Positions 15,825 through 57,036 of a DNA stretch of 62,717 nucleotides are shown piece after piece (the first letter of the stretch is position 1; every line of letters starts with the position of its first letter). The translations under genes and the position numbers were made by a program. Source of the stretch: a virus (taxonomy: Duplodnaviria > Caudoviricetes); IMG/VR virus record IMGVR_UViG_3300037509_000107, positions 1-62,717 of that record; one strand, given 5' to 3'. Under the pieces are notes generated by a model. It saw nothing but the letters and a program-made list of their open reading frames with translations, was not told the origin of the DNA and made no database searches.

Positions 15825-15827
15825 CCC

Positions 15828-16364: not shown

Positions 16365-16382
16365 CCCGAAAGCGAGGACGCC

Positions 16383-42081: not shown

Positions 42082-43510
42082 GCGGATCGAACGGGTTGCC
42101 TGGCCGGACCGGTTCGCCGAGTACGCCAGCGGCGGCGCCTTCCGGCCGTTCGCCTACCAGCGGTTCATCGCCCGGCGGATCGCGGCGGCGGTGGCCCGGG
42201 GCAACGGCCGGCTGATCGTCAACCTCCCCAGCCGGCACGGCAAGAGCGAGTTGTGCAGCCGCTGGATCCCGACGTGGTTCCTGGACTGCCAGCCCCGCAA
42301 GCGGGTGATCGTCGCCTGCTACGGCGCCGAGCTGGCCGAGAACTGGGGCCGGACCGTCCGCAACGAGTTCGACCACAACGAGCGGCTGACCGCCCGCCTG
42401 CGGGACGACTCCAAGGCCGCCAACCGCTGGAACACCCCGGAGGGGGGCGGGATGCTGGCCGTCGGCGTCGGCGGCGCGGTGATCGGGTTCGGCGGGGACC
42501 TGATCGTCATCGACGACCCGCACAAGGACTGGGCCGAGGCCCACAGCCCCACCCAGCGCAAGCGGGTGATCGAGTGGTTCGGCTCGACGCTGTACAGCCG
42601 GTGCGAGCCGCGCGGGACGATCGTGCTGCTGATGCAGCGGCTGCACGCCGAGGACCTCAGCGGCTTCCTGATCGAGCACCACGCGGAGCCGTGGGACGTC
42701 GTCCGCCTGCCGGCGATGGCCGAGGAAGCCGACCCCATGGGCCGGCCGGCCGGTGCCGCGCTGTGCCCAGAGCGGTATGACGCCGACGCCCTGCTCCGCC
42801 TCCGCCACGGCCTGACGGTCGGCGCGTGGGAGTCGATGTACCAGCAGCGCCCCGAGGCGTTCGGCGCCGGCCGCGCCTACCACCGGTTCGTCCCCGCCGC
42901 GAACGAGGACAAGACGCTGCGGCTGCGGCCGGAACTGCCGGTCCACCTGGCGTTCGACTTCAACGTCAACCCCGGTACGCACGGCATCGTCGGCCAGTAC
43001 GACCCGCGGGCGGATGTCTTCACGGCCTTGCACGAGATCTTCGGGCCGCGGCAAAAGACCGGGCCGACGATGGACGAGTTCGCCCGGGTGGCCAAGCGGC
43101 TCGGCGTGCCGGCCGGGGCGGAGGTCGTCGTCTTCGGCGACCGCAGCGGCAAGTCCGAGCACACGACGACGTCGGAGACGGACTACCAGATCATCCTGGC
43201 CAAGCTCCGCCAGTTCGGCTACCGCCCGACGCTGCGGGTGCCGGCGGCGAACCCGCCGGTGAAGGACCGGCTCGACACGTTCAACGACGCGCTGTGCGAC
43301 CAGTTCGGTGGGGTGCATTACCTCGTGAACCCGCTGACGTGCCCGCGGCTGGTCAACGACCTGAAGCGGTGCAAGGAAGACGAGGACGGGCTGCTCGACA
43401 AGAGCGACGAGGACCTGACGCACCCGAGCGACGCCGAGGGGTATCGAATCATCCGCCTCCGTCCGATCCGCAAGCTGACGATCACCGGCGCGCCGCCGGT
43501 CATCGTGTGA
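42026..43510 (+). CDS. terL: Terminase large subunit
   Basis: NLPSRHGKS, GFGGDLIVIDDP, LMQRLHAEDL, nuclease AFDFNVNP...HPSDAEGY. Confidence 0.92.
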   Translation: MPPKPPPPTPQPLPPAELERIERVAWPDRFAEYASGGAFRPFAYQRFIARRIAAAVARGNGRLIVNLPSRHGKSELCSRWIPTWFLDCQPRKRVIVACYGAELAENWGRTVRNEFDHNERLTARLRDDSKAANRWNTPEGGGMLAVGVGGAVIGFGGDLIVIDDPHKDWAEAHSPTQRKRVIEWFGSTLYSRCEPRGTIVLLMQRLHAEDLSGFLIEHHAEPWDVVRLPAMAEEADPMGRPAGAALCPERYDADALLRLRHGLTVGAWESMYQQRPEAFGAGRAYHRFVPAANEDKTLRLRPELPVHLAFDFNVNPGTHGIVGQYDPRADVFTALHEIFGPRQKTGPTMDEFARVAKRLGVPAGAEVVVFGDRSGKSEHTTTSETDYQIILAKLRQFGYRPTLRVPAANPPVKDRLDTFNDALCDQFGGVHYLVNPLTCPRLVNDLKRCKEDEDGLLDKSDEDLTHPSDAEGYRIIRLRPIRKLTITGAPPVIV

Positions 43511-43764: not shown

Positions 43765-45549
43765 ATGCCCGACACCGACCCCCAGCAGCCCGCCGCGCCC
43801 GCTCCCCAGCCGGCGCAGGCCGCCGGCGCGCAGACCACGCTGCCGCCTGAAGGTCAGCAGTCGGGCGCGCAGGTCCTGAACAACTGGCTCGGCGCGGCCG
43901 GCGTGCTCGGGTTCGGCCCCGGCATGATCTTGTGCGGGGCGGGATCCCCGCTGCTGAGCGGCGCCGGCGGCTCGTGGGCCAACCCGTGCGGGATCAGCGG
44001 GTGGGGCGCGGCCGGGTTCGGCGGGCCGACGATCGGCACGTACCGGCTGATGCTCCAGCATCCCACGATCCGGCACGTCCGGGCCAACGTCTTCGCCCCG
44101 ATCAAAGACAGCCAGTGGACCGTCGAGCGGGCCGAGGAAAAGGAACAGGTCGAGCAGGAGCAGGCGGCCGACCCGATGGACCCAGCGGGCCGGCAGCCGC
44201 CGACCGATGGTGCCGAGGATCCCGACGCCGGCCCGGCCGACCCGCCGACCCCCGGCGCCCTCCCGCCCGAACCGCCGCAGCCGAACGACCCGATCGACGA
44301 GGCGGTCAAGTTCGTGCAGAAGGTGATGGACGGCCTGCGGCCCAAGCTGGTGCCGCACGCCCTCCGCGGCCTCGACTACGGCCACGCCCCGTTCGAGATC
44401 GTCTGGGGCCACGACCCCCGCGGGTACTACACGATCACCGTGGCCAAGCCGCTCGCCGTGTCGTCCTTCCCGCTCACCGGGTACGCCGGGGCCGTCGCCT
44501 ACACGGAGATCGAGGACGACGATTTCGGCAACCTGAAGACACTCCGCAACGTCGGCGTGAAAGGCGGGGCGAAGGGGGCGACCGTCGAGCTCCACGTCGC
44601 CGACCGCAAGGCGTGGCTCTACACGTACGACGGCGAGACGGGCAACCTCCGCGGCCGCAGCATCCTGGAGAACATCCGCGAGACCGCGTGGCTCGACTGG
44701 CTCGACGCCCGCCAGCAGTTGCAAAGCCTCGGCTTCAAGATCGCCGGCCGGCAGGCGTACGCCGTCGTCCCCCCCGGGGGTTACGAGCACCCCGTCACCG
44801 GGGAGTTCCGCACGTTCGCACAAGACGCCGCCGACGGCCTGACCGCGTTCGTCCACGGCAAGCAGCCCATCTTCATCCGGCCGGCCGTCGAGGGGATGGC
44901 CGACGACGTGAAGCAAGTCACGTCGGGCACGCCGCTTGTCAGTTTTGAGGTGGTGGACTTCGGAGACCAGGCCCCGTTTGCCGCGAGCCTGCTCAACCGC
45001 ATGGCCGCGGCCGAGCGGATGATGTTCAGCGGCTACCTCTGCTCCCCCCGCACCGGCATGGAGGCCGAGCACGGCAGCCGCGCCGACGCCGCGGAGCACA
45101 GGGACGGCGGGATCCAGATCAGCCAGGCGATCGCCAACGACCTCGCCCAGCAGGCGCAGGTCCTCGTGGACTGGCTCGCCGAGATCAACTTCGGCCTGCC
45201 GCACGGGACGCTGGTCATCAAGAACGCGCCGCTGGTCGACACGCGCAAGAGTGCCTACCTCGATGTGATCAAGGGCCTGCTGTTCAACCAGCAGTTCCAG
45301 AACGAGGCGGTCCACACGCTCGACGTCGACAAGATGCTCGACTCGCTGGACTTCCCGCGGCTAGCGAACTTCCGCGAGGTGCTGTTCGACCTCAAGGCAA
45401 TGCAGGCGCAGCAGTCCGCCCTGCAAGCCCAGCAGCCCCCCGCCGGCGGGGACGGGGCGGGCGAGGGGGATGAGGGCGACGATGGTCCGCCCAACGGCCC
45501 GCCGCAGCAACCGCCGACGCCCGCACTCCCGCCGCCGGCCGCGGCTTAA
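43765..45549 (+). CDS. Portal protein (Mu gp29/DUF935-like)
   Basis: Position after terL; ALRGLDYGHAPFEIVW, LRGRSILE, GSRADAAEH, LVDWLAEINFG. Confidence 0.8.
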   Translation: MPDTDPQQPAAPAPQPAQAAGAQTTLPPEGQQSGAQVLNNWLGAAGVLGFGPGMILCGAGSPLLSGAGGSWANPCGISGWGAAGFGGPTIGTYRLMLQHPTIRHVRANVFAPIKDSQWTVERAEEKEQVEQEQAADPMDPAGRQPPTDGAEDPDAGPADPPTPGALPPEPPQPNDPIDEAVKFVQKVMDGLRPKLVPHALRGLDYGHAPFEIVWGHDPRGYYTITVAKPLAVSSFPLTGYAGAVAYTEIEDDDFGNLKTLRNVGVKGGAKGATVELHVADRKAWLYTYDGETGNLRGRSILENIRETAWLDWLDARQQLQSLGFKIAGRQAYAVVPPGGYEHPVTGEFRTFAQDAADGLTAFVHGKQPIFIRPAVEGMADDVKQVTSGTPLVSFEVVDFGDQAPFAASLLNRMAAAERMMFSGYLCSPRTGMEAEHGSRADAAEHRDGGIQISQAIANDLAQQAQVLVDWLAEINFGLPHGTLVIKNAPLVDTRKSAYLDVIKGLLFNQQFQNEAVHTLDVDKMLDSLDFPRLANFREVLFDLKAMQAQQSALQAQQPPAGGDGAGEGDEGDDGPPNGPPQQPPTPALPPPAAA

Positions 45550-45788: not shown

Positions 45789-45867
45789 CCGATCATAGCA
45801 TGACCGCCCCCGCCCCGACGATCCCCACCCACCCCGCGCGCCGCGTGTTCCGCGGCAGCCGGTGGGC

Positions 45868-46011
45868 TTAGCGTCGCGGGGGCTTCGGGGCGTTCTTCTT
45901 GGGGCGGCCGCCCTTCTTGCCGTTGGCGGCGGCGGCCTTTGCTTTGGCGGGGGACTTGCGGCGGCCGAGGGCTGCCATCGCCTTGCGGATGATGTCGGAT
46001 TCGCTCGGCAT
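45868..46011 (-). CDS. 47-aa basic DNA-binding peptide (S.AKA.AA..NGKKGGRP)
   Basis: MPSESDIIRKAMAALGRRKSPAKAKAAAANGKKGGRPKK; TGATG coupling; not in track. Confidence 0.7.
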   Translation of the reverse strand: MPSESDIIRKAMAALGRRKSPAKAKAAAANGKKGGRPKKNAPKPPRR

Positions 46012-46550: not shown

Positions 46551-46556
46551 AGAGCC

Positions 46557-46585
46557 AAGGTATCCCATCCGTTGGGTTTCCGCAA
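46557..46585 (-). promoter_or_regulatory. Leftward promoter with operator-like palindrome in the spacer
   Basis: TTGCGG-17-TACCTT; spacer contains CCCA-ACGGA-TGGG. Confidence 0.55.
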
Positions 46586-46604
46586 GCAGAATCTGGAAAG
46601 CCGC

Positions 46605-49600
46605 TTGAGTACCGCTACTACCCATCCCAAGGCCGCCGCGATTCGCCTTTCGCGCGCCCCCACTGGTCAGGGTCATTGGGTGACGCACAACGGGCACCGG
46701 ATCTTCATTTCAACCGGGCAACACTCGCCGGCTCCGGTGGCCACCGCTGGCGTCCCGGCCGCCGCGCCGGCTACACTCCCGCCAGTGGCGAAGCCCCGCG
46801 GGGCGGGTCGCAAAACGCCGCAGCCGAAACCCCCTCAGCGACCCGGCGGCGAGAAGGTTTATCACGGCACCCCTCACGATTTTGAAGGGCTGCCCCGCGT
46901 CGGTTCGTACTTCACTCGGACGCCGAGGGCCGCCGAGGTCTACCAGCGGAAGGGCGACGGAGCCGGGCGGGTGGTGGAAGCCCAGATCAATCCGAAAGCA
47001 AAGATCAAGTCGATCGACCGCGGGTGGAACGACGAGGACGTACAGGAGTTCTTCAAACGCACGGACCGTTCCGACCTAAACTACGATCATTTTATTGATC
47101 TGGTTGAGTCCGACGCCTTCCGGGATTTCCTGCGCGAGAAGGGCTATGACGCCGTGGGGTTCCGCGAAGAATCGGCGCAAGCCGGGGACGTAACCGCTGT
47201 CGAACACGACTCGTTTACCACCCTGACCAAGAACGCCTTGGTGGGGCAAACAGAGGAACGCCCACAGGCTCAAGCGGCGGCCCCGGACGCCAAAGACCCG
47301 GCCGAGCTTAAGGTGATCTTGGCGCAGCGGCACGCGGATTTCCACCCCTACATCCGCGCCTACTACGGGCACATTGCGCGTGGCGAACCGGAGCCCGACC
47401 CCAAGCAGTTCGGCATTCGAAACGCCTACAACGCGGAACTCATCAGAAAACTGTTCCCCTCGTCTTTTAACCCGCCCGCCCCCGTCGCGTCCGGGGGCAC
47501 CACGCGCCTGTCCCGCGCCTTCATCAACGGCCGCTGGGAGTCCGCCAACGCCGTCGAACTCGCCCGCCAGCCCAGCATCCCCGGCCAGGGCTCGCTGTTC
47601 GGCAGCGGGCACTGGGTGATGGTTGAGCGGCACGGAGAACACCACCGGGTGTTCATTCAGGACAAGCCGCAGGGCCAGCAGGGCAGGCTGTTCGGCCAGA
47701 CCCCCGGCACTGCGTTCGGCGGCGGCAGCGCCCCGACCCCCGCCCACCACGCCGTCGCCCACGCCGCGGTGTCGGCGGTCAAGGGCGCGCCGGGCGCGGC
47801 GTTCCAGCCCCGGCAGGCTCCGGCCCCCGCAACCCCAACGGCACCCGCCCCGGCCCCGCAACCGGCCGCACCGTCCGCCCCCCAGATCGACCACGACAAG
47901 CTGCACGCCCGCACCCGGGAACTCCGCGCCGCCGGCCAGTCCGGCGGCCAAGCCGTCGTCAACGCCATGCGGGAGCAGGGTTACGAGCCCAAACCCGTCG
48001 CGGCCCGCCCCGAGCCGAAGGCGTGGCAGCGGGAACTGGCCCAGCCGGACAAGCCCAAGGGCGAGTCCGAGCCGACCGTCGCCGAGCGGCGGGACGTCCA
48101 CCCGTCTGTGAAGCGGGCACTGGAACGGCAGCGGAACGCGAAGGAAGCCGGCGCCGCGGCCCCGCAGCCGGCACAGGAGCCGCCGGCCGCGCCGGACGCC
48201 CCCGCGGCACCCCCGGCGGCATCTGCCAACCCCCCAACTACCAAGCCGGCCGCCAAGGCGGCCAAGGCCCCGACCAAGGCCGAGATCCAGCGCCACCTCA
48301 CCGAGCGGTGGGAGCGGGAGGGCGGCGACCTCGGCGTGCAGGACGACGACGCGCTGGCCGACTTCCACTCCCCGTTCACGTTCCACCGGGAACTGCCGGG
48401 CGAGGTCAAGACGTTCCTCGAGGGCCGGGCCCACCTGAAGAAGCTGTTCACCGTCACTCAGGACGGCAACAAGGCGCAGGGGGCGGACGCCTTCGGGGCC
48501 CTCGGTGACGAGTATTTCAACATCGCCGAGCGGCGCGGGGCGAGCCGGGTCAACGCGGCCCTGGACCACGCCCGCAACCACCACGACCCCGAAGTGCGGC
48601 TCATGGCCGCCATCCACGATACGCTGCCGCCGGCGGGCGAGCGTCAGAAGGTCGAGCCGGTCAAGCCAGAGAACCTCGAACTCGACACCGCCGGCACCAT
48701 CAACCAGATCCCCGTCCGCGTGATGCTGAACGAGGACGGCGAGAAGATCCTCCAGGACCACGGCGACCTCCCCGACACGCCGGTTGACGCGCTGGACCGG
48801 CCCGTGCCGTTCGACAAGGGCAGCATCCACAAGGAGGAACTGCCGGACGTGGGGGCCCTGCCGGACTTCACGCAGGGGTTGGAGCAGGATCCGCCGCCGC
48901 CCGCTCCGGCGGACGAGCCGGCCCCGGCGCTCCCGCAGCCCGTCTCCCGCCCCTCCGGCGACTCGCCCCTCGGCGACGCCGCGGAGGCGGAGGCCGCGAA
49001 GTGGGCGAAGGCGACCGAGGGGCTGACCCAGGAGCAGATCGACTACTACACCGGCCGGCTGGCCGCGGGGAACGCCCAACCGGACGTGGACGAGTCGTTC
49101 CGCGCCCGCGCCGAGTCGAACGCCGCCGCCCGCCGCGCCGCCGCGCGGATGGGCGAGAACCTGAACCCGCGGCCGGTCCGCAGCCCCGCGCCCGCCCCGA
49201 CGCAGACCGAGAAGCGGGTTGCCGCCGCCCGCGCCGACATCGAAAGCCGCCTCGGCCCCGACCTCGGCACCGGGGCGATGAAGAAGGCGCTGCGGGACAT
49301 CGGCACCAGTACCCCGCAGGCCGCCGCCCCCGTCTCGATCCCCCACGCGGAGATCCAGCGGCGCACGGCCGAGCACCTGAAGAAGGGCATGCCCTACCGC
49401 CAGGCGTGGCAGAAGGCACTGGCCGACGCCCACGCCGAGGTGACGAGCCGCCCGCCGGCCGCGCCGGCGTCCGCGCCCGCCCCGGCCAACGCGACGCCCG
49501 GGGTGACCCGCGACGCCGCGGGGAACGCCGCCCCGACCGCCACCGACGGATTCCGCCCGTTCCACGCATGGAGCAAGGAGGGCGACAGCCCCGACCGGCG

Positions 49601-52600
49601 CTACGAGGGCGTGGTCTACGGGAGGGACGCCGACCACGCGGAGCACAACGCCCGGGAGCAGTTCGGCGTCCACAAGGCGTTCGACCTGCACGTCGGGCAC
49701 AAGGGCGGGCCGGTGGCGAAGAAGGCGGGGCAGAAGGCGCGGGACGTGAGGCTGAGCCGCGCGGCGGACGACGTCGACGCGGTCATGCTGTCCCGCCACA
49801 AGTTCAGCAGTACACAGATCAACCTGCACGGCTACATCGCGCAGGCTGTCCTCGCCCACGCGCACGCGATCCCCGACAGCGATCTCGCCGACGGCGGCCG
49901 CGAAACCGAACCTCACGTGACGGTCAAGTACGGGATTCACGGGTCGGACGTGGAGGCCGTCCGCCGGGCACTGGCCGATGCCGACCCGGTCGAAATCATG
50001 CTCGGCAGGACGTCCGTATTCCCGGCCACTGAAGACCGGCAATCCGACGTGCTCAAGGTCGAGGTGATCGGCCCCGGCCTTCACCGGCTGAACAAGAGAC
50101 TGTCCGCCGCCCTGCCGCACACCGACACGTACCCCGACTACCGGCCCCACGTTACCCTCGCCTACCTCCGGCCTGGTGCCGGCCGACGGCACACGGGACG
50201 GGATGTGGTCGAGGGAATGGCCTTCGTCGCCGACCGCGTGCGGTTCAGCGACCGCGACGGGCACTGCACCGACATCCCGCTTGGCAAGGCCGCGGCGGTG
50301 CGGATGTCGCGCGGCGACGGGCAACCCTACTGGTTCACCGGCCATGACGGGAAGCGGCACTTCGTCCAGCCGCACACGCAGGGGTCGCTGTTCGGGGGGC
50401 CGCCGAGTCGCCCGGCGCCGGCGCACGCGGCGGCACCGCAGGCCGCGGCACCGACGCCCAAGCCCGCCCCGGCCCCCACGCCGGTTCCCCAACCGGCTCC
50501 CGAGCCGGCGACGTCCGCCGCCAATCTGCCGCCCAAGGGCAGGGTTACGGACTTCGGCGAGAAGATCGGCGGGGCGCGGAAGGACATCGCCCGGCCGACC
50601 GGCCCGCGCGCCCCCAAGGCGGACGACGGCGACACCCGCCCGGCGTGGGCGAAGCGCTGGGTGTCGATGCAGAGCCTCAAGACCGGCAAGTGGGCAGTGG
50701 TGCGCAACGACGGCGGTGGCCAGTCGAACATCATCCTCGACTCCATCTACAACCGCAGCACCGAGTTTGCCACGCAGGCGGAGGCGGACGCCGCGATCCC
50801 GCTCAAGGAAGTGGCCCGCAACCACGTCGTCCGCGACGTCGGCCGCCGCGGCGAACCGGCCAACTTCGCCATCGTCCGCAAGATCAACGACCGCAAGTCG
50901 GCCACCGTCAAGGGCGGGTTCGCCACCCGCGAGGAAGCCATGAAGTACATGGCGGCCCACCCGGTCGAGATCATCGAGCACAAGTTCCCGTTCCCCGACG
51001 AGGTGGAGCACCTGGCGAACGTCGAGCGGACCGGCAAGAGCCGCCGCACGGGCGACGTGTCCCCGGAGGACTTCCAGACCGCGTTCGGGTTCCGCGGCGG
51101 CGAGTTCGGCAACTGGAACGTCGGCCGGGAGGGGCAGGAGGCCCTGAACCACGCCTACGACGCCCTGCACGACCTGGCCGACCTGTTGGGTGTCCCGCCG
51201 AAGGCCGTCAGCCTGAACGGGGAGCTGGCCATCGCGTTCGGCGCCCGTGGCACCGGCGGCAAGGGGGCGGGCAAGGCCCACTACGAAACCGACAAGCGGG
51301 TCATCAACCTGACGAAGATCAAGGGCGCGGGGTCGCTCGCCCACGAGTGGTTCCACGCGCTGGACCACTACGTCGGGAAGCTCGCCGGCAAGCTCGACAC
51401 GGACAAGGATCCGGCGTTCGCAAGCCACGGGCTGCACACCAAGCACACCGCCCGCCCCGAACTGGCCGACGCCTTCAAGCGGGTGATGGACACGATCACC
51501 CACAAGGAAACCGAGAAGGCGATCGAGTCCACCTTCGAGGCCCACAAGGTCGGCCGGTACAAGGAGAACCTGGCCGACCAGATCAAGCGGCTCGAATCCC
51601 GGTTCGGTGACGAGGCCCGCTACAACAAAAAGTTCAAGCCGTTCACGCCGGAGCAGCAGAAGCAATGGGACGCCGCCAAGGCGAAACTGCTGAGCGGCGA
51701 CGTGGGCGAAAAGAAGTGGGTGTATCCGGAACGGACGGGCGGCCGACTCAGCCATAACGCCCGCCCGTCGTTCGAGCCCATCGAGGAGATGAACGCCCTA
51801 TACAAACAGGCGACCGGCCGCGGGTTCGCCAGCATGACGCCGGGTAGCGACGCGCACCACCTGTTTTGGGGCGTTGAGAACATCAAGACGGCCGAGACGC
51901 GGCTGGCCGAGGCCCACCAGGGCCAGAAGGAAACGAAGCGGATCACCACCGACTTCTACGACGAAGCCCGGAAGATCGACAGCTACCGCGGGAGCGACTA
52001 CTACTCCGAGCGGCACGAGATGGCCGCCCGCGCGTTCGGGGGGTACGTCCGCGACCGGATCGAGGCCGCCGGGAACAAGAGCCAGTACCTCAGCCACGGC
52101 AACCGCAACAACTTCCTGAACTCGCAACTCGGCAAGCCCTACCCCGAGGGCGCCGAGCGGGAGGCGATCCACGCCGCGTTCGACCACCTGTTCAAGACGA
52201 TCAGGACCGAGGCCGCGAAGGACGCCCGGGGCCGCGACACGGTGCGGATGCTCTCCCGCTCCGCCCGCGGCCACTGGTCCGCCCTCCCCGGCGGCGCCCG
52301 CGTCTTCCGCCTGAGCCGCGCGTGGGAAGAGGCCAAGCACCCGCGGGCCGAGGACGGGCGGTTCGGCCACACCGCCGGCCAGCACGGGGGCACCGTCGAC
52401 ACCAACCGGCAATTCGGCCTGTTCGCGAAGGACGCCGCCGGCAACCCCGCCGAGGTCGGCGAGCGGGCCGGGCAGGGCAACCTGTTCGCCCCGGGCAAGC
52501 CGGCCGCGGCACCCGCCGCCGCCCCGAAGCCGGAGCGGGTCGGCAGCGCCAACGCGTCGGACCCGAAGCACACCGCCCCCCTGCCGTTCGATAAGCCGGC

Positions 52601-53768
52601 CGGGGGGAAGGACGGCGACCCGTGGGCGGGCGACCCGTACCGGGAGGCGGCGCGGGCCGTGGTCGACCAGATCAACAAGCGGTACGCCGCCGTCGAGGCC
52701 GAGGTGACGGCCAAGGTCAAGGGCTACGCCAAGGCCGCGAACGACGAGTTCGCCCGCCGGCTGGAGGCCGACAAGGCGTCGCCCGTGGGCAAGGCACTCG
52801 CCGGCGTGGTCGACCGGGCCGCGAAGGAGCTGGCCGCCATCCCCGACGCCGAGTACGACGCCATGACGGCCGAACAGGCGGACGCCCGCGCTCTGAAGGC
52901 GGTGGACGCGGCGATCGACGCCGCCCCGGCGGAGACCCGGGACGCGCTGCGGGCGGCACGGGCCGAGATCGCCGACGACCTGTACGCCATCGAGCCCGGG
53001 GCGGCCGCCGACCGCACGGAAAGCCTCCTACGCTCCGCCGCCGCCAAGGCCGCGATTGAGGCGGCGACCAAGTCGCTGCCGGAGGGGTTCACCGAACTGG
53101 TGGACCTGGACGGCCACGCGGACACGCTGGCTGAGGGCGAGAAGCTGTCCGCCCGCGACGTGGCGGACGAGTGGGACGGGGAGGTCGAGCAGTACCTGGA
53201 GAATGAGCGGGAGATCCTGGTGAGCGAGGCGTCCGCCCCCGCCGACGCCCCGGCGTCCGTCCGCGAGTACGTCGACGCCCACAACTACCGCTTGCAGGAG
53301 GCGATGGAAGAGCGGCCGGGTAAGGTCGACGCCGACCGTGTGTTCGCCGAGGACGACAACGGCGTCCGGGCCATACCCGCCGCCGCCGGCCGGGCGTTCG
53401 CCGCCGCAGCCAACCGGTACTACGACGAGGAACTGAAGGCCCGCGGGGTTGACGGCGAGGGCTACCCGCTCGGCGTTGACCCCGAGTCAGACGAGTATGA
53501 GGACAAGTACGACGGGGACGCGCCGGCGGAGGCCGCCCGCGCCGCCGTACTGCGGGCTACGAAGGAAGCCCCGAAGGAAGCCCGCGGCCGACTGAAGGAC
53601 GACCGGGACGACCTGATCGAATCGCTGGCGACCTACGGCGAGTTGCCGGCCGACCAGTTCCACTCTGACGACGAGCCGCCGGCGGCGAAGTTGTCCCGGT
53701 CGGCCCGCGGCGGCACCTGGTCCCGCGACGCCGGCGGGCGGCGGGTGTTCAGCCCCGCGGCCGCCTGA
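46605..53768 (+). CDS. Giant polyvalent protein/polyprotein: ART-like, 2H phosphoesterase (Acb1-like), LPD1-like zincin, acidic helical domain
   Basis: KVYHGT..GSYFT; two HVT motifs; FGFRGGEFGNW, AHEWFHALD, EMAARAF, YPEGAER; nine [LM][SA]R boundary motifs; TTG start at 46605 after GGAAAG. Confidence 0.85.
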   Translation: MSTATTHPKAAAIRLSRAPTGQGHWVTHNGHRIFISTGQHSPAPVATAGVPAAAPATLPPVAKPRGAGRKTPQPKPPQRPGGEKVYHGTPHDFEGLPRVGSYFTRTPRAAEVYQRKGDGAGRVVEAQINPKAKIKSIDRGWNDEDVQEFFKRTDRSDLNYDHFIDLVESDAFRDFLREKGYDAVGFREESAQAGDVTAVEHDSFTTLTKNALVGQTEERPQAQAAAPDAKDPAELKVILAQRHADFHPYIRAYYGHIARGEPEPDPKQFGIRNAYNAELIRKLFPSSFNPPAPVASGGTTRLSRAFINGRWESANAVELARQPSIPGQGSLFGSGHWVMVERHGEHHRVFIQDKPQGQQGRLFGQTPGTAFGGGSAPTPAHHAVAHAAVSAVKGAPGAAFQPRQAPAPATPTAPAPAPQPAAPSAPQIDHDKLHARTRELRAAGQSGGQAVVNAMREQGYEPKPVAARPEPKAWQRELAQPDKPKGESEPTVAERRDVHPSVKRALERQRNAKEAGAAAPQPAQEPPAAPDAPAAPPAASANPPTTKPAAKAAKAPTKAEIQRHLTERWEREGGDLGVQDDDALADFHSPFTFHRELPGEVKTFLEGRAHLKKLFTVTQDGNKAQGADAFGALGDEYFNIAERRGASRVNAALDHARNHHDPEVRLMAAIHDTLPPAGERQKVEPVKPENLELDTAGTINQIPVRVMLNEDGEKILQDHGDLPDTPVDALDRPVPFDKGSIHKEELPDVGALPDFTQGLEQDPPPPAPADEPAPALPQPVSRPSGDSPLGDAAEAEAAKWAKATEGLTQEQIDYYTGRLAAGNAQPDVDESFRARAESNAAARRAAARMGENLNPRPVRSPAPAPTQTEKRVAAARADIESRLGPDLGTGAMKKALRDIGTSTPQAAAPVSIPHAEIQRRTAEHLKKGMPYRQAWQKALADAHAEVTSRPPAAPASAPAPANATPGVTRDAAGNAAPTATDGFRPFHAWSKEGDSPDRRYEGVVYGRDADHAEHNAREQFGVHKAFDLHVGHKGGPVAKKAGQKARDVRLSRAADDVDAVMLSRHKFSSTQINLHGYIAQAVLAHAHAIPDSDLADGGRETEPHVTVKYGIHGSDVEAVRRALADADPVEIMLGRTSVFPATEDRQSDVLKVEVIGPGLHRLNKRLSAALPHTDTYPDYRPHVTLAYLRPGAGRRHTGRDVVEGMAFVADRVRFSDRDGHCTDIPLGKAAAVRMSRGDGQPYWFTGHDGKRHFVQPHTQGSLFGGPPSRPAPAHAAAPQAAAPTPKPAPAPTPVPQPAPEPATSAANLPPKGRVTDFGEKIGGARKDIARPTGPRAPKADDGDTRPAWAKRWVSMQSLKTGKWAVVRNDGGGQSNIILDSIYNRSTEFATQAEADAAIPLKEVARNHVVRDVGRRGEPANFAIVRKINDRKSATVKGGFATREEAMKYMAAHPVEIIEHKFPFPDEVEHLANVERTGKSRRTGDVSPEDFQTAFGFRGGEFGNWNVGREGQEALNHAYDALHDLADLLGVPPKAVSLNGELAIAFGARGTGGKGAGKAHYETDKRVINLTKIKGAGSLAHEWFHALDHYVGKLAGKLDTDKDPAFASHGLHTKHTARPELADAFKRVMDTITHKETEKAIESTFEAHKVGRYKENLADQIKRLESRFGDEARYNKKFKPFTPEQQKQWDAAKAKLLSGDVGEKKWVYPERTGGRLSHNARPSFEPIEEMNALYKQATGRGFASMTPGSDAHHLFWGVENIKTAETRLAEAHQGQKETKRITTDFYDEARKIDSYRGSDYYSERHEMAARAFGGYVRDRIEAAGNKSQYLSHGNRNNFLNSQLGKPYPEGAEREAIHAAFDHLFKTIRTEAAKDARGRDTVRMLSRSARGHWSALPGGARVFRLSRAWEEAKHPRAEDGRFGHTAGQHGGTVDTNRQFGLFAKDAAGNPAEVGERAGQGNLFAPGKPAAAPAAAPKPERVGSANASDPKHTAPLPFDKPAGGKDGDPWAGDPYREAARAVVDQINKRYAAVEAEVTAKVKGYAKAANDEFARRLEADKASPVGKALAGVVDRAAKELAAIPDAEYDAMTAEQADARALKAVDAAIDAAPAETRDALRAARAEIADDLYAIEPGAAADRTESLLRSAAAKAAIEAATKSLPEGFTELVDLDGHADTLAEGEKLSARDVADEWDGEVEQYLENEREILVSEASAPADAPASVREYVDAHNYRLQEAMEERPGKVDADRVFAEDDNGVRAIPAAAGRAFAAAANRYYDEELKARGVDGEGYPLGVDPESDEYEDKYDGDAPAEAARAAVLRATKEAPKEARGRLKDDRDDLIESLATYGELPADQFHSDDEPPAAKLSRSARGGTWSRDAGGRRVFSPAAA

Positions 53769-53802
53769 TCCACGCTCTAACCCCGCACCCCGCACAACCC
53801 AC

Positions 53803-55023
53803 ATGAGCCACGCACCCGACACGCTGATCCTCCGCGCGCCCGCCGACAAGCCGGCCCGCAAGGGCGACGCCGACGCCGCGCGGCTCGGGCTGCCGAAGGA
53901 CCGCCTTGGCGTCCCCTGCTTCTACTACTGGAAGTCGATGGCCGACGCGGACACCGACTACGCCCACCCGAACCCCAAAATGGGCACGATCCGGTTCAGC
54001 CGCAAGGACCTCACCGACGCCGACCGCTACACCAAGGAGTGGATCGCCGACGGCGGCAAGCCGTTCCTCCCGATGGGCCACGGCACCAGCGGCAACCAGG
54101 GCTTCCTGAAGGACACGAAGTTCGACGGCAAGACCCTCTGGGGCCTGCACCAGTTCGTGGGCGAGACCGCCCGCGAGAACGCGGCCAAGCACGAGACCAG
54201 CGTGTGCCTCCGCCGCCGGTTCAAGGGCGGCAACGGCAAGGTCTACCCCATCCTCGTTGAACACAACGCCCTCGTCGCCGACCCGGTGGTGATGGGCCTC
54301 CCCGACTACGTGGCTCTGTCGCGCGGCTCAGGCGGCCCCGCTGACACCCTTCCCGTCTACACCCCGGCCGCCCAAGGAACCCCCCACATGCCCAACGCCG
54401 AACAACTGGCGAAGGCGAAGGAACTCCTCGGTACGCCGGATCTCGCCGACGACCAGGTGTTCGACGTTCTCATGTCCGCCACCGCCGTTGCGCTGGAGGA
54501 CGCCACCCGCTTCGAGCAGGAGAACACCGGCCTGAAGGAGTCGGTCGAACTCGCCCGCCGCGAGCGGGACGACGCCAAGCGCGAGCGGGACGACGCGATC
54601 GAGCTGTCCCGCCACGCCGGCGGCCAGCCTCACGCCCCGGCCGCCCCCTCCGCCGCGGAGATCTACTACATGAGCCGCACGGTCGCCGCCGCCAAGCGGT
54701 CCGTCGTCGAGCGGCGGGCATTGTCCCCCGCCGCGGTCGCCCGGCTGGAGGCCAAGCTGCTCGCGGGCAAGCCGGTCGAGCTGGACAAGATCAGCCTCAG
54801 CCGCGCCGTCGAGCCCGACGACCACAAGGTCCGCGACGGCCTGGCCGTCTTCGCCGACGTGCTCGAAGCCCTGGAGTGCAACGTCCCCACCCCGCCCGTC
54901 GGCGCCGCCACCGGGCCGCAGGGCGACGTCAGCCTCAGCCGCACGGGCGAGGGCGCCGGCGAGGGCGAGCGAGTCAACCCGTACGAGCCCACGATCAAGG
55001 CCCTGACCGGCGACGCGAAGTAA
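53803..55023 (+). CDS. Mu gpI-like prohead protease fused to scaffold
   Basis: Position before decoration/capsid; PMGH, TSVCL, HNALVADPVVMGL; coiled-coil C-half. Confidence 0.75.
   Translation: MSHAPDTLILRAPADKPARKGDADAARLGLPKDRLGVPCFYYWKSMADADTDYAHPNPKMGTIRFSRKDLTDADRYTKEWIADGGKPFLPMGHGTSGNQGFLKDTKFDGKTLWGLHQFVGETARENAAKHETSVCLRRRFKGGNGKVYPILVEHNALVADPVVMGLPDYVALSRGSGGPADTLPVYTPAAQGTPHMPNAEQLAKAKELLGTPDLADDQVFDVLMSATAVALEDATRFEQENTGLKESVELARRERDDAKRERDDAIELSRHAGGQPHAPAAPSAAEIYYMSRTVAAAKRSVVERRALSPAAVARLEAKLLAGKPVELDKISLSRAVEPDDHKVRDGLAVFADVLEALECNVPTPPVGAATGPQGDVSLSRTGEGAGEGERVNPYEPTIKALTGDAK
54388..55023 (+). CDS. Nested in-frame scaffolding protein (internal start)
   Basis: AAGGA...ATG at 54388 in frame after the protease domain, as in Mu I/Z. 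Confidence 0.55.
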   Translation: MPNAEQLAKAKELLGTPDLADDQVFDVLMSATAVALEDATRFEQENTGLKESVELARRERDDAKRERDDAIELSRHAGGQPHAPAAPSAAEIYYMSRTVAAAKRSVVERRALSPAAVARLEAKLLAGKPVELDKISLSRAVEPDDHKVRDGLAVFADVLEALECNVPTPPVGAATGPQGDVSLSRTGEGAGEGERVNPYEPTIKALTGDAK

Positions 55024-55920: not shown

Positions 55921-57036
55921 ATGCCCGCAAGTTTGATGGACTACCTCTCGGGCGATCAGCTCACGAAGCTCGCCCAGGCGTACGCGGTCAAGCCCCGCCT
56001 CGCCCGCCCGTTCCCGGCGGCCTTCTACAACATGGGCACGAAGGTCTACGGGACCGCCGTCAAGTACGACCTCGTCAACGGCTCCCGCGAGTCGGCCAAG
56101 ATCACCAACCCGGACAGCCCCTCGCAGGTCGCGCAGGGCATCCAGACCGACAGTCGGAAGGTCGTGGCGATCGGCAGCCGCGAGCACTTCGTCGTCGGCA
56201 TGGACCTCATCCAGGCCCTCCAGTGGCCCGGCGACATGGTCCGCGCCAACGCCCAGATGGAACTGGAGCGGCAGGTCAAGGCGTTCGTCGACCGGTTCAT
56301 GAACATCGAGACCAACGCCGTCCACTCCGCGCTGGTCCGCGGCAAGATCGACGTCGGCTCCGACGGGTCGATCCAGGCGAGCACCAGCAGCCCCGTCCGC
56401 ACGATCGACTACACCGGCGCGACCGGCACGCAGCTCACCAAGGACGGCGCCGGCGGCACGTTCAACATCGGCGACTGGTCCGACGCCAGCACCGACATCG
56501 TGACGAAGGTCAAGGACCTCAAGCGGTACATCCTCAAGACGTACGGGTGGGAGCTGACCGACGTCTACCACGGGATCAACGTCGGCGCGAACCTGGCGAA
56601 GAACTCTGCGTTCCGCGAGTACCTCAGCCGCCACGAGAGCTACCGGAACCAGTTCGTGTCCGCCGGCGAGATCGCCCCGGGAACTTTGGGGCTTCGCTGG
56701 CACGCGGTCGACACCGCCACGACCGTCACCGGCGGCTCGGCCACGAGCTGGGCCGGCGACAACTTCCTGGCCTTCTCGCCCGACCCATCCGACACCGGCT
56801 GGTACGAAGGGTTCGTCGCGGGCCTGCCCGCCCCGAGCGGCCTGACGAGCGAGGCGGAGATCAAGTCCGCCATGCTGTCGCCGGAGACGCTCGGCGCGGC
56901 CTTCCCGGTCAAGTACGGCGTCCACAGCTACACGATCTACAACGCCGACCCGATCAGCGCTAAGATCGTGACCTCGAATTTCTCGCTCGGCGTGATCAAG
57001 GCGCCGAACGTCTTCCCGAGAGGCGTTTGCGCGTAA
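55921..57036 (+). CDS. Major capsid protein (lambda gpE-like)
   Basis: 371 aa after decoration gene; AAAGGA RBS; size and synteny. Confidence 0.75.
   Translation: MPASLMDYLSGDQLTKLAQAYAVKPRLARPFPAAFYNMGTKVYGTAVKYDLVNGSRESAKITNPDSPSQVAQGIQTDSRKVVAIGSREHFVVGMDLIQALQWPGDMVRANAQMELERQVKAFVDRFMNIETNAVHSALVRGKIDVGSDGSIQASTSSPVRTIDYTGATGTQLTKDGAGGTFNIGDWSDASTDIVTKVKDLKRYILKTYGWELTDVYHGINVGANLAKNSAFREYLSRHESYRNQFVSAGEIAPGTLGLRWHAVDTATTVTGGSATSWAGDNFLAFSPDPSDTGWYEGFVAGLPAPSGLTSEAEIKSAMLSPETLGAAFPVKYGVHSYTIYNADPISAKIVTSNFSLGVIKAPNVFPRGVCA

What the first reader, a model, noticed from the sequence alone, without database searches (positions are those of the whole stretch)
46605..55023. Candidate protease-processed, capsid-loaded effector polyprotein punctuated by a [VIF]-x-[LM]-[SA]-R motif shared with the scaffold
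Seen: the ~2,390-aa ORF has nine copies of the motif (L/M codon at 46647 IRLSR, 47508 TRLSR, 47559 VELAR, 49752 VRLSR, 49788 VMLSR, 50304 VRMSR, 52251 RMLSR, 52311 FRLSR, 53691 AKLSR). They fall at domain borders, often in pairs, and bracket an ART-like, a 2H phosphoesterase, an LPD/zincin and an acidic helical module. Codons differ between copies, so the conservation is at protein level. The adjacent 406-aa protease/scaffold has six more (54316 VALSR right after the protease domain, 54550 VELAR, 54604 IELSR, 54670 YYMSR, 54796 ISLSR, 54934 VSLSR). Known: prohead proteases cut scaffold and internal head proteins at short motifs (T4 gp21, phiKZ gp175), and the portal-protease slot normally holds MuF, which can carry effector domains. 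Inference: one polyprotein is packaged and cut by the head protease into separate enzymes that are injected with the DNA, a modular anti-defence payload.
Basis: partly seen in the sequence, partly recalled or inferred. Interest (0 to 1): 0.92.

Follow-up and report, generated by a model that had tools for sequence, protein, structure and literature searches.

The report
Phage effector polyprotein with protease-like cut marks
A prophage encodes a giant multi-enzyme protein whose module borders carry the same short Leu/Met-Ser-Arg mark that is repeated in the neighbouring head protease/scaffold protein, which suggests, but does not prove, that the head protease cuts it into separate enzymes inside the capsid.

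Summary
All 15 motif copies lie at the stated coordinates with varied codons. [LM]SR occurs 8 times in the giant protein (shuffle mean 0.51), 5 times in the 406-aa neighbour (0.13), and 5 times in the other 12,118 aa.

The neighbour is a Mu gpI-like prohead protease/scaffold: T4 gp21/assemblin fold, invariant Ser133 and His154. LSR is the most over-represented tripeptide in 141 related scaffolds, 331 observed against 12.4 expected.

The giant protein is a polyvalent protein in the MuF slot. Its motifs sit at module edges. Relatives P0070 and P0171 bracket the same 2H enzyme with [LM]SR, and P0171 and P0129 fuse that enzyme to the protease/scaffold.

Cleavage and packaging remain untested. Against the reading, a similar delimiter, D-[IV]-R-hydrophobic-S-(R), recurs in polyvalent proteins of phages with no detectable Mu-like protease. 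A co-variation test was inconclusive.

Verdict: a new variant of known kinds. Head-protease processing has odds of about 0.5.

The parts
46572..53768 (+). Giant polyvalent protein gene. 2398 aa from TTG 46572; alternative start TTG 46605 with GGAAAG upstream.
46647..46655 (+). Motif copy 1, IR-LSR (residues 26-28), near the N-terminus.
46671..46706 (+). Hairpin motif 1, GHWVTHNGHRIF (residues 34-45).
46854..47180 (+). ART-PolyVal-like region (residues 95-203). Weak match.
   Evidence: 17.5 bits, below the 31.2 cut-off; 17.3 bits
47508..47516 (+). Motif copy 2, TR-LSR (313-315).
47559..47567 (+). Motif copy 3, VE-LAR (330-332). The pentapeptide VELAR also occurs in the scaffold.
47607..47654 (+). 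Hairpin motif 2, GHWVMVERHGEHHRVF (346-361), flanked by QGSLFG (339) and QGRLFG (370).
48261..48827 (+). Conserved module of unknown function (residues 564-752; motifs FTFHxxLP, GADAFGxLGD, DPEVRxxAAIHD). In other phages it is fused N-terminally to the protease/scaffold.
49752..49760 (+). Motif copy 4, VR-LSR (1061-1063), in a low-confidence linker.
49788..49796 (+). Motif copy 5, VM-LSR (1073-1075). It ends immediately before the start of the 2H domain (1076).
49797..50294 (+). 2H phosphoesterase domain (residues 1076-1241) with two H-x-T motifs (PHVTV, PHVTL).
50304..50312 (+). Motif copy 6, VR-MSR (1245-1247), 4 residues after the 2H block, where pLDDT is below 50.
50325..50363 (+). Hairpin motif 3, PYWFTGHDGKRHF (1252-1264), followed by QGSLFG (1270). 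The model shows two short strands at low confidence.
50379..52271 (+). LPD5 / zincin-like (HEWFH at residues 1591-1595) / LPD1 block (residues 1270-1900).
52251..52259 (+). Motif copy 7, RM-LSR (1894-1896), at the end of the LPD1 block.
52269..52307 (+). Hairpin motif 4, GHWSALPGGARVF (1900-1912).
52311..52319 (+). Motif copy 8, FR-LSR (1914-1916).
52320..53699 (+). Acidic C-terminal module (residues 1917-2376, net charge -36). It begins with QFGLFA and QGNLFA.
53691..53699 (+). Motif copy 9, AK-LSR (2374-2376), 22 residues from the C-terminus.
53712..53750 (+). Hairpin motif 5, GTWSRDAGGRRVF (2381-2393), in the C-terminal tail.
53803..55023 (+). Prohead protease/scaffold gene (406 aa).
53902..54312 (+). 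Protease domain (about residues 34-170). Assemblin/T4 gp21 fold; S133 and H154 invariant, H93 nearly invariant.
54316..54324 (+). Scaffold motif 1, YVA-LSR (172-174), at the end of the protease domain. Invariant among the three close homologues.
54550..54558 (+). Scaffold motif 2, VE-LAR (250-252).
54604..54612 (+). Scaffold motif 3, IE-LSR (268-270).
54670..54678 (+). Scaffold motif 4, YY-MSR (290-292).
54796..54804 (+). Scaffold motif 5, IS-LSR (332-334). L332 and S333 are nearly invariant in 70 relatives.
54934..54942 (+). Scaffold motif 6, VS-LSR (378-380), in a disordered stretch.
43765..45549 (+). Portal protein (Portal_Mu). No [LM][SA]R.
42026..43510 (+). Terminase large subunit.
55921..57036 (+). 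Probable major head protein (weak phrog_29 match). It carries PR-LAR at residues 27-29 and Y-LSR at residues 235-237.

Best explanation
The 2398-aa protein is a phage polyvalent protein sitting in the head-gene slot that usually holds MuF. It carries an ART-like module, an unknown module, a 2H phosphoesterase, an LPD5/zincin/LPD1 block and an acidic tail. The modules are separated by linker cassettes made of one or two [LM]-S-R sites, a short G-H-W-V-T..G..V-F-I hairpin and a Q-x-x-[LM]-F motif. The next gene encodes a Mu gpI-like serine prohead protease fused to a helical scaffold that carries the same [LM]-S-R at six places. The proposed mechanism is as follows. The polyprotein is co-assembled into the procapsid. 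The prohead protease cuts both its own scaffold and the polyprotein at [LM]-S-R. This yields about five enzyme-sized pieces (about 287, 731, 172, 649 and 460 aa) plus short spacers. These pieces stay in the head and leave with the DNA. What is shown: the motif statistics, the identity of the protease, the family-wide conservation of the motif, the placement at module borders, and the natural fusions. What is inferred: packaging, cleavage, the scissile bond, ejection, and any anti-defence role. From recall of herpesvirus assemblin sites of the type V-x-A|S, the scissile bond may lie between L/M and S.
For: 1. Enrichment. [LM]SR occurs 8 times in the giant protein (shuffle mean 0.51) and 5 times in the scaffold (0.13). 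It occurs 5 times in the other 12,118 aa.

2. Protease identity. The best structural match of residues 2-161 is T4 gp21 (Z 9.9, rmsd 3.3, 135 aligned), followed by herpesvirus proteases at Z 8.8 to 5. Foldseek's top 12 rows are gp21 and herpesvirus proteases, though none has E at or below 0.001. S133 and H154 are invariant and H93 nearly invariant in 70 relatives. 14 of 70 relatives match Pfam Mu-like_Pro.

3. Family-wide motif. In the scaffold parts of 141 of the 150 listed relatives, LSR is the most over-represented tripeptide among those seen 40 or more times: 331 observed against 12.4 expected. 123 of 141 have at least one [LM]SR, 105 at least two and 74 at least three. Site positions are conserved while the flanks diverge.

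4. Classical Mu-like scaffolds repeat a related motif, A-[AS]-L-[ST]. Mu gpI has 6 (0.13 expected), DMS3 has 3 (0.16) and HKPH_J3 has 4 (0.14). Mu portal has one at residue 427 of 512.

5. Borders. Five of 9 sites lie within 15 residues of a homology-block edge (P 0.0003). In the AlphaFold model, LSR1061, LSR1073 and MSR1245 lie in stretches with pLDDT below 50 that flank a 2H domain with pLDDT 84-96.

6. Independent examples. P0070 (2644 aa) has 7 [LM]SR against 0.70 expected, with the same cassettes after its 2H and ART modules, and it has no HExxH. In P0171 the 2H module is bracketed by LSR677 and MSR864 upstream of its own protease/scaffold, which carries 4 LSR.

7. Natural fusions of the 2H module (P0171, P0129) and of the unknown module (8 of the 13 extended forms printed) to the N-terminus of the protease/scaffold place these modules inside procapsids.

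8. Gene order is terminase, portal, giant protein, protease/scaffold, a 226-aa protein, head protein. The genome has no Phage_Mu_F match.

9. Precedent. Prohead proteases cut ejected head proteins in SPN3US, with 14 sites in 9 proteins (abstract of PMC10052503).
Against: - No cleavage, packaging or ejection has been observed.
- The giant protein's sites mostly have Arg before the L/M (IRLSR, VRLSR, VRMSR, FRLSR). Only 8 of 366 scaffold sites do.
- A similar delimiter is common in other polyvalent proteins. For [IV]R[FYLM]S, 32 were observed against 11.9 expected in 74 long ORFs, and 53 against 20.7 in 119 homologues. Among 101 sites matching the wider pattern [IV]R[FYLMWIV]S, R follows the S in 32.
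- Five such phage records, four of them at least 97% complete, have no match to Mu-like_Pro or to my profile. In one of them, IRFS occurs 5 times in the giant protein but in no scaffold-like protein.
- The closest relatives by domain show no enrichment: P0005 has 1 against 0.73 expected, and P0271-P0273 have 0, 2 and 1 against 0.63-0.73.
- Across all 120 proteins counted (P0001 plus 119 homologues) the excess is only 235 against 133.9.
- Co-variation in 21 natural fusions was not significant (rho 0.11, p 0.73, n 13).
- Several scaffold sites lie in predicted helices.
- In DMS3 and HKPH_J3 the scaffold motif is absent from portal and MuF.
- The giant protein has its own HExxH zincin-like module, which could do the cutting (proposal of PMC5512222).
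Confidence: 0.5

Rival explanations
1. The giant protein's [IV]-R-[LM]-S-R sites are the local form of a generic module delimiter of polyvalent proteins, D-[IV]-R-hydrophobic-S-(R). Its role does not depend on the head protease. It could be cut by the protein's own zincin-like module, as Iyer et al. proposed for MPTases, or by a host protease after entry, or it could serve a structural or unfolding role. On this reading the likeness to the scaffold motif is partly coincidental.
For: - ART-PolyVal modules end in the consensus NPDIR[FY]S across the 66 loci ORFs examined.
- [IV]R[FYLM]S is 2.6-2.7 times over expectation, and DIR[FYLM] 4.3-6.4 times.
- There are up to 5 IRFS copies in one 5699-aa protein.
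- Among 101 wider-pattern sites, R follows the S in 32 and D precedes the motif in 56.
- 0 of 5 such phage records have a Mu-like protease match.
- The giant protein has HEWFH.
- Iyer et al. propose MPTase autoprocessing (passages of PMC5512222).
Against: - P0070 has the same cassettes but no HExxH, so an intrinsic zincin cannot be general.
- In other polyvalent proteins the hydrophobic position is mostly F or Y (60 of 101). In this protein and in P0070 it is only L or M, the residues used by the scaffolds (L 331, M 35, F 4, Y 1).
- The second member of each site pair (VELAR, VMLSR) lacks the [IV]R signature and reads like scaffold sites. VELAR is in both proteins.
- The DIR enrichment is partly inherited with the homologous ART module, because those loci were selected through that module.
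Confidence: 0.28
2. [LM]SR is a shared docking motif rather than a cleavage site. Scaffold and cargo both use it to bind the inner capsid surface, the portal or each other, so it acts as a capsid-targeting signal, and the protein is packaged whole.
For: - The motif is shared only by the two proteins expected inside the procapsid.
- Several scaffold copies lie within predicted helices rather than loops.
- By recall, N4-type virion RNA polymerase is packaged unprocessed; this is cited in PMC5512222.
Against: - Five or six copies at conserved positions with diverging flanks in a helical scaffold is the pattern of protease sites. T4 gp22 and the phiKZ-like phages are recalled examples; SPN3US is supported by the abstract read.
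- One copy sits exactly at the end of the protease domain, where assemblin-type enzymes release themselves (the assemblin parallel is recalled).
- The copies lie in low-confidence linkers and in close pairs 12-20 residues apart.
Confidence: 0.12
3. The shared motif is a by-product of amino-acid composition in a 70% G+C genome.
For: L, S, R and A are common residues in high-GC proteomes. The loose form [LM][SA]R occurs 15 times elsewhere in the proteome.
Against: - Composition-preserving shuffles never reached the observed [LM]SR counts (0 of 5000 for each protein).
- The rest of the proteome has 0.41 per 1000 aa, against 3.3 in the giant protein and 12.3 in the scaffold.
- The motif is conserved across 141 scaffolds of varied composition.
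Confidence: 0.02

Closest known systems
Polyvalent proteins of phages and conjugative elements (Iyer, Burroughs, Anand, de Souza, Aravind 2017, PMC5512222)
   Same: One polypeptide with LPD1, LPD5, 2H and an ART-PolyVal-like module, encoded among virion genes. That paper already predicts packaging, delivery with the DNA, and proteolytic processing (passages read).
   Different: The paper proposes processing by intrinsic zincin-like MPTases. The words 'linker' and 'head protease' do not occur in its main text. Here the candidate enzyme is the capsid maturation protease, with a defined site motif shared with the scaffold. Its supplementary alignments could not be seen and may already show the DIR[FY]S ending of ART-PolyVal.
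T4 gp21 with internal proteins and Alt; phiKZ gp175 / SPN3US gp245 with ejection proteins
   Same: The protease fold is the same. The logic is the same: one short motif marks the scaffold and the packaged or ejected proteins, which are cut in the prohead (SPN3US abstract; T4 and phiKZ details recalled).
   Different: By recall, those substrates are separate small or medium proteins, usually trimmed once to remove a propeptide, at motifs ending in Glu. Here a single 2398-aa multi-enzyme chain would be cut at up to nine sites into several enzymes, at [LM]-S-R.
Bacteriophage Mu gpI protease / gpZ scaffold (Pfam PF10123)
   Same: A protease and a helical scaffold in one reading frame between the portal/MuF genes and the head protein. 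The scaffold carries a repeated short L-[ST] motif: Mu has 6 copies of A[AS]L[ST], and 6 LSA against 0.24 expected.
   Different: The window's protein does not itself match PF10123, and my profile does not detect Mu gpI. The motif is x-[LM]-S-R instead of A-A-L-S/T-x. Three tblastn searches against 50,697 phage records, using this protein and two relatives (P0002, P0135, P0150), found nothing.
Herpesvirus assemblin release (R) and maturation (M) sites
   Same: The fold is the same. The Ser and His residues come in the order H93, S133, H154. One site lies directly after the protease domain (YVA-LSR; FVAASRG in most relatives), and further sites lie in the scaffold part.
   Different: The assemblin consensus V/L-x-A|S is recalled, not tested. 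Whether the bond cut here is L|S or follows the Arg is unknown.
MuF-family head proteins with C-terminal toxin or effector domains (SPP1 gp7 / Mu F)
   Same: The gene slot after the portal is the same, and so is the idea of effector delivery from the head (passages of PMC5512222). A distant relative, locus L001, has an ordinary 305-aa MuF-like gene in this slot.
   Different: There is no Phage_Mu_F match in the giant protein or anywhere in the genome.

Membership tests
Polyvalent protein (Iyer et al. 2017) | Several unrelated enzymatic or LPD domains in one polypeptide | tested here: met
   LPD1 9e-19, 2H 1.1e-10 and LPD5 9e-9 in Pfam. 153 homologues had E at or below 0.001; the 120 listed carry varied LPD domain architectures in their precomputed Pfam column.
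Polyvalent protein (Iyer et al. 2017) | Encoded by a phage or conjugative element, next to virion or transfer genes | tested here: met
   The gene lies between a Portal_Mu portal and the protease/scaffold, in a record that IMG/VR classes as a provirus.
Polyvalent protein (Iyer et al. 2017) | Packaged and delivered into the host with the DNA | not testable with these tools
   Needs virion proteomics. Support is only indirect, from the natural fusions to protease/scaffold.
Mu gpI-type prohead protease/scaffold (Pfam PF10123, assemblin-like fold) | Match to the Mu-like_Pro profile | tested here: inconclusive
   The window protein has no Pfam match. 14 of 70 aligned relatives match, with a best E of 1.7e-6.
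Mu gpI-type prohead protease/scaffold (Pfam PF10123, assemblin-like fold) | Assemblin / T4 gp21 fold of the N-terminal domain | tested here: met
   5jbl_C has Z 9.9, rmsd 3.3 and 135 aligned residues. Herpesvirus proteases have Z 8.8-5. The first unrelated row scores Z 5.0. Foldseek E-values are weak, 3.7e-3 at best.
Mu gpI-type prohead protease/scaffold (Pfam PF10123, assemblin-like fold) | Conserved catalytic Ser and His | tested here: met
   S133 and H154 are invariant and H93 nearly invariant in 70 sequences. Their superposition on the catalytic residues of solved proteases was not checked.
Mu gpI-type prohead protease/scaffold (Pfam PF10123, assemblin-like fold) | C-terminal helical scaffold in the same frame, with the gene lying before the head protein | tested here: met
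   Helices at 199-209, 216-271, 284-303, 309-319 and 340-358. Gene order.
Mu gpI-type prohead protease/scaffold (Pfam PF10123, assemblin-like fold) | Proteolytic activity on scaffold and head proteins | not testable with these tools
   Needs an experiment.
MuF / SPP1 gp7 head morphogenesis protein (PF04233) | Phage_Mu_F domain | tested here: not met
   No match in the giant protein, and none in the whole 62.7-kb record at E up to 1.
2H phosphoesterase superfamily | Two H-x-T/S motifs in a 2H fold | tested here: met
   PHVTV and PHVTL are present in the sequence. Pfam 2_5_RNA_ligase2 scores 1.1e-10. The model has pLDDT 84-96. Foldseek finds Usb1, CPDase, a phage phosphodiesterase, Acb1 and LigT, with 35 matches at E at or below 0.001.
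ART-PolyVal ADP-ribosyltransferase (PF18760) | Profile match above the curated cut-off | tested here: inconclusive
   17.5 bits against a cut-off of 31.2. My own profile, built from P0070 plus 19 loci segments, gives 17.3 bits on residues 95-203, with the VYHGT and YFT motifs aligned.
Zincin-like metallopeptidase (MPTase) of polyvalent proteins | HExxH motif in an LPD5/CLCA_X-like region | tested here: inconclusive
   HEWFH lies at 1591-1595. The NCBIfam CLCA_X match of 150 bits is below its cut-off of 260. No fold test was made.
Prohead-protease-processed internal or ejected head proteins (T4 IP/Alt type) | The substrate carries the same short site motif as the scaffold | tested here: met
Prohead-protease-processed internal or ejected head proteins (T4 IP/Alt type) | Cleavage at that motif in the prohead | not testable with these tools
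   Needs an experiment.

The most novel reading that the evidence does not exclude
Phage polyvalent proteins may be true polyproteins. A conserved module delimiter (D-[IV]-R-hydrophobic-S, often followed by R) would mark processing sites in many lineages. In this lineage it has been tuned to the [LM]-S-R specificity of a large, uncultured clade of Mu-like capsid proteases. One packaged chain would then be cut inside the head into several enzymes. Most released pieces would begin with a G-H-W-V-T hairpin and a Q-x-x-[LM]-F motif. By recall, that motif resembles the bacterial sliding-clamp-binding motif, so it could dock the enzymes on the host replisome or on the entering DNA.
Probability: 0.2. 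Interest if true: 0.88.

Novelty: new variant of a known kind. Interest (0 to 1): 0.7.

Why it matters
If the reading is true, it has several consequences.

- It gives the first defined cleavage motif for a clade of Mu-like prohead proteases. That clade has 751 representatives at E at or below 0.001, and three tblastn searches against GenBank phage records found no match.
- It turns the 2017 prediction that polyvalent proteins are processed into a directly testable statement: a named enzyme, named sites and predicted fragment sizes.
- It would show that tailed phages use a polyprotein strategy for their injected enzymes.
- It would allow the mature products of polyvalent proteins to be predicted from sequence alone.
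- The natural fusions of a 2H phosphodiesterase (related to Acb1 and Usb1) to the protease/scaffold suggest a simple ancestral way of loading such an enzyme into the capsid.

Tried and rejected
- **Complex prediction.** I submitted protease domain residues 28-168 with giant residues 1046-1085. The answer was no verdict (score 0.00, controls not run). It says nothing either way.
- **Genomic context of LSR-type scaffolds.** One scan found a single distant 6.6-kb contig, L001, which has an ordinary MuF and a scaffold without LSR.
- **Scans with P0070 and P0005.** The metagenome and viral scans with P0070 returned only relatives of its ART module (78 and 15 loci). None holds a protease/scaffold match apart from L001. 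The scan with P0005 found nothing.
- **Searches of GenBank phages.** blastn and tblastn with the head region, P0002, P0135 and P0150 gave no match. The LPD5-LPD1 region found only LPD5-type proteins, mostly of Stx phages with other head types.
- **Co-variation in natural fusions.** I used 21 fusions. P0171 fell outside my filter and was examined by hand. N-terminal extensions hold xSR 10 times against 4.0 expected, and xSA 11 times against 4.0. There was no correlation with scaffold type (rho 0.11, p 0.73, n 13).
- **Other searches without result.** The sequence search of PDB with P0002 found nothing. The protein atlas search for the unknown module 545-800 scored no hit above 0.78.
- **Literature.** No listed paper joins 'polyvalent protein' with 'maturation protease'. 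No paper holds two or more of DIRFS, DIRYS, IRLSR and polyvalent. I found no paper giving the cleavage sites of Mu gpI.
- **Upstream coding.** I rejected the idea that the region upstream of 46572 belongs to the polyprotein. The frame has a stop before 46365, and the 1-kb gap holds only a doubtful minus-strand ORF.

Full report
**What the window is**

The window is the whole record held for this genome: one contig of 62,717 bases with about 70% G+C. IMG/VR classes it as a provirus estimated 72% complete. The finding lies in the head-gene block, which runs as follows:

- terminase large subunit, 42026-43510 (phrog_38, 5.2e-53)
- portal, 43765-45549 (Portal_Mu, 6.8e-9)
- a 1-kb gap
- the giant ORF, 46572-53768
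- the 406-aa ORF, 53803-55023
- a 226-aa ORF
- a probable major head protein, 55921-57036 (weak phrog_29 match, E 0.0042)

**Check of the observation**

I compared them with a crude GC3-based proteome of 55 ORFs.

| Pattern | Giant protein | 406-aa protein | Other 53 proteins (12,118 aa) |
|---|---|---|---|
| [LM]SR | 8 | 5 | 5 |
| [LM][SA]R | 9 | 6 | 15 |

None of 5000 composition-preserving shuffles of either protein reached its observed [LM]SR count; the shuffle means were 0.51 and 0.13. The Ala-containing form is much less specific: for the giant protein the shuffle mean was 2.48 (P 0.0008), and the form occurs 15 times elsewhere. So the real signal is [LM]-S-R. The two LAR copies are plausible only because of their context: the pentapeptide VELAR is present in both proteins.

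**The 406-aa protein**

It matches nothing in Pfam, PHROGs, NCBIfam or PDB sequences. It has only two close relatives. A profile search of 1.84 billion representatives found 751 relatives at E at or below 0.001.

- In an alignment of 70 relatives, G100, G120, S133 and H154 are invariant and H93 is nearly invariant.
- 14 of the 70 match Pfam Mu-like_Pro.
- The AlphaFold model has mean pLDDT 81.3. It shows a beta-rich domain to about residue 170, a disordered stretch at 173-194, and then helices.
- VIA-align puts T4 gp21 first (Z 9.9, rmsd 3.3, 135 residues), followed by herpesvirus proteases (Z 8.8 to 5). Unrelated folds begin at Z 5.0.
- Foldseek's top rows are the same families, but at weak E-values of 3.7e-3 and above.

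I therefore accept that this protein is a prohead serine protease fused to a scaffold, a divergent branch of the Mu gpI type.

**The motif is a property of that whole family**

I took the scaffold parts of 141 of the 150 listed relatives. Nine were dropped because they lacked the N-terminal part of the profile or had a scaffold part shorter than 120 aa. A de novo count of all tripeptides puts LSR first among those seen 40 or more times: 331 observed against 12.4 expected, a 26.6-fold excess.

- 123 of the 141 have at least one [LM]SR, 105 at least two, and 74 at least three.
- After [LM]S the next residue is R in 366 cases and A in 92.
- The sites keep their positions while the flanks change.
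- One site sits directly after the protease domain. It reads YVA-LSR here and FVAASRG in the family consensus.

Classical Mu-like phages show a related pattern with another ending, A-[AS]-L-[ST]:

- Mu gpI has 6 copies (0.13 expected).
- DMS3 has 3 (0.16 expected).
- HKPH_J3 has 4 (0.14 expected).
- LSA occurs 6 times in Mu gpI, against 9 times in the other 10,860 aa of Mu.
- Mu portal has one copy at residue 427 of 512. The portals and MuF proteins of DMS3 and HKPH_J3 have none.

Repeated short sites with free flanks in a helical scaffold are what one expects of maturation-protease sites. I found no paper that gives the sites of Mu gpI. That the Mu portal is trimmed at its C-terminus is my recollection only.

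**The giant protein**

Pfam finds LPD1 (residues 1803-1880, 9e-19), a 2H phosphoesterase (1110-1203, 1.1e-10) and LPD5 (1423-1503, 9e-9). It also finds a sub-threshold ART-PolyVal match at 95-199. A profile I built from ART relatives hits the same place at 17.3 bits. There is an HEWFH motif at 1591. It is thus a polyvalent protein in the sense of Iyer et al. 2017.

That paper predicts packaging and processing, but by intrinsic zincin-like peptidases (passages read). The words 'linker' and 'head protease' do not occur in its main text. The genome has no Phage_Mu_F match. A distant relative of the head module, locus L001, has an ordinary 305-aa MuF-like gene in the same slot.

**Borders**

I defined homology blocks from the alignments to all proteins fetched up to that point, requiring coverage of 5 or more. 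The blocks are 564-752, 1076-1241 and 1270-1900.

- Five of the nine sites lie within 15 residues of a block edge (P 0.0003).
- Counted as six clusters, three lie near an edge (P 0.009).
- Site 1894 lies 4 residues inside a block end.

I also modelled residues 1030-1330 with AlphaFold. The 2H domain comes out at pLDDT 84-96. LSR1061, LSR1073 and MSR1245 fall in the flanking stretches below 50. The fold matches Usb1, CPDase, a phage phosphodiesterase, Acb1 and LigT.

If the protein were cut after each Arg, the pieces would be 28, 287, 17, 731, 12, 172, 649, 20, 460 and 22 residues long.

The sites belong to larger linker cassettes.

- A hairpin-like motif, G-[HT]-W-x..G..[RH]-[VI]-F, occurs five times. 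It occurs only in this protein in the genome, each time just after a site.
- Q-x-x-[LM]-F occurs five times (shuffle mean 0.18; 0 of 5000 shuffles reached five). It occurs twice in the other 12,524 aa.
- Sites often come in pairs 12-20 residues apart.

**Independent examples**

Among the 119 listed homologues of the giant protein, most show little excess. The total, including the query, is 235 against 133.9 expected. P0070 stands out with 7 against 0.70.

- P0070 has the same cassettes after its 2H module (VRMSR ... VEMAR ... hairpin ... QxxMF), after its ART module (IRMSR ... VEMAR), and at its C-terminus. It has no HExxH.
- Among the scaffold relatives, 21 carry N-terminal extensions of more than 100 residues.
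- P0171 (1278 aa) reads: hairpin, unknown module, 2H (bracketed by LSR677 and MSR864), protease, then a scaffold with four LSR.
- P0129 is a 2H module fused to the protease/scaffold.
- Eight of the 13 extended forms I printed begin with the hairpin and the unknown module that occupies residues 564-752 of the giant protein.

Because the protease/scaffold works inside the procapsid, these fusions are the best available evidence that the modules are capsid cargo.

**Evidence against a simple reading**

- The giant protein's sites mostly read [IV]-R-[LM]-S-R, with Arg before the L/M. Only 8 of 366 scaffold sites have that.
- ART-PolyVal modules end in the consensus NPDIR[FY]S across 66 ORFs from unrelated loci. 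Only 1 of the 66 has [LM]SR there.
- [IV]R[FYLM]S is 2.6-2.7 times over expectation in 74 long ORFs and in 119 homologues. DIR[FYLM] is 4.3-6.4 times over expectation. There are up to five IRFS copies in one 5699-aa protein.
- In 191 other polyvalent proteins I counted 101 sites of the wider pattern [IV]R[FYLMWIV]S. The hydrophobic residue is F in 39, Y in 21, L in 16 and M in 4. R follows the S in 32, and D precedes the motif in 56.
- Five phage records with such proteins, four of them at least 97% complete, have no match to Mu-like_Pro or to my scaffold profile.
- In one of those records, IRFS occurs five times in the giant protein and only once elsewhere, in a 250-aa ORF that holds a single copy.

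So a delimiter of this general shape exists without a Mu-like protease. What is special to this phage, to P0070 and to P0171 is the choice of L or M, the residues the scaffolds use (L 331, M 35, F 4, Y 1), together with a constant Arg after the Ser.

Further points against: the closest relatives by domain (P0005, P0271-P0273) show no excess and no hairpins. The co-variation test on 21 fusions was not significant.

**Weighing**

The motif statistics, the protease identity, the border placement and the fusions are solid. The step from 'shared motif' to 'cut by the head protease' is an inference by analogy with T4 and with phiKZ/SPN3US. For SPN3US the abstract reports 14 sites in nine head proteins. 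I put this step at about 0.5.

The main rival, at 0.28, is a generic polyvalent delimiter that is handled by another protease or by none. A shared docking motif gets 0.12, and chance 0.02.

Packaging itself I think likely, at about 0.8. No tool here can show packaging or cleavage. The complex prediction gave no verdict, and I do not use it.

**Novelty**

Polyvalent proteins are known, and so is prohead-protease processing of internal and ejected proteins. The following points are new as far as my searches reach (no cleavage-site data):

- a defined [LM]-S-R site motif for a large uncultured clade of Mu-like proteases;
- the presence of that motif at module borders of a polyvalent protein;
- the fusions of a 2H enzyme to the protease/scaffold;
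- the accompanying hairpin and Q-x-x-[LM]-F motifs;
- the wider D-[IV]-R-hydrophobic-S delimiter.

The supplementary alignments of Iyer et al. could not be read and may already show that last feature.

Noticed in passing
window 46671-46706, 47607-47654, 50325-50363, 52269-52307, 53712-53750: A hairpin-like motif, G-[HT]-W-x..G..[RH]-[VI]-F, occurs five times, only in the giant protein, each time just after an [LM]SR site. The same motif opens six of the natural protease/scaffold fusions printed (P0171, P0140, P0142, P0144, P0211, P0174). Its function is unknown.
   Followed up: partly
window, giant residues 339, 370, 1270, 1947, 1968 (QGSLFG, QGRLFG, QGSLFG, QFGLFA, QGNLFA): Q-x-x-[LM]-F occurs five times in the linkers (shuffle mean 0.18; twice in the other 12,524 aa). 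It also occurs in P0070 and P0171. By recall only, it resembles the bacterial sliding-clamp-binding motif.
   Followed up: partly
loci L091 (ORF 1085-18181), L007 (5537-16474), L081, L086, L013, L089 and others: Polyvalent proteins of unrelated phages carry a recurrent delimiter, D-[IV]-R-[FYLM]-S, often followed by R, at the end of ART-PolyVal and other modules. There are up to five copies in one protein.
   Followed up: partly
window 48261-48827 (giant residues 564-752): A conserved module without any Pfam or PHROG name (motifs FTFHxxLP, LFxVT, GADAFGxLGDxYF, DPEVRFxAAIHDxLP). It is shared with three other giant proteins (P0271-P0273) and with the N-terminal extensions of several protease/scaffold fusions. 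The atlas search gave nothing above 0.78.
   Followed up: partly
window 45550-46571: A 1-kb gap lies between the portal and the giant gene. It holds only a doubtful minus-strand ORF (46011-46568, about 185 aa) with no significant Pfam match. That ORF would diverge from the giant gene with almost no spacer if the giant gene starts at 46572.
   Followed up: partly
window 55921-57036: The probable major head protein carries PR-LAR at residues 27-29, which could be an N-terminal trimming site, and Y-LSR at residues 235-237. Neither was examined further.
   Followed up: no
window 55089-55769; L001 4928-5662: A 226-aa Ala/Thr/Gly-rich ORF lies between the protease/scaffold and the head protein. The distant relative L001 has a 244-aa ORF in the same place. 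Neither has a family match.
   Followed up: no
L080 / L096 (phage Mu, AF083977): Mu gpI carries six LSA (0.24 expected), five of them as [VI]-A-A-L-S-A-like repeats in the scaffold part. Mu portal has EAALSAED at residue 429 of 512 and Mu F has VRALSAAR at 191.
   Followed up: partly
window 40644-41267: A 207-aa ORF upstream of the terminase has a sub-threshold ParB_N match (E 0.00086, 19.7 bits against a cut-off of 26.3).
   Followed up: no
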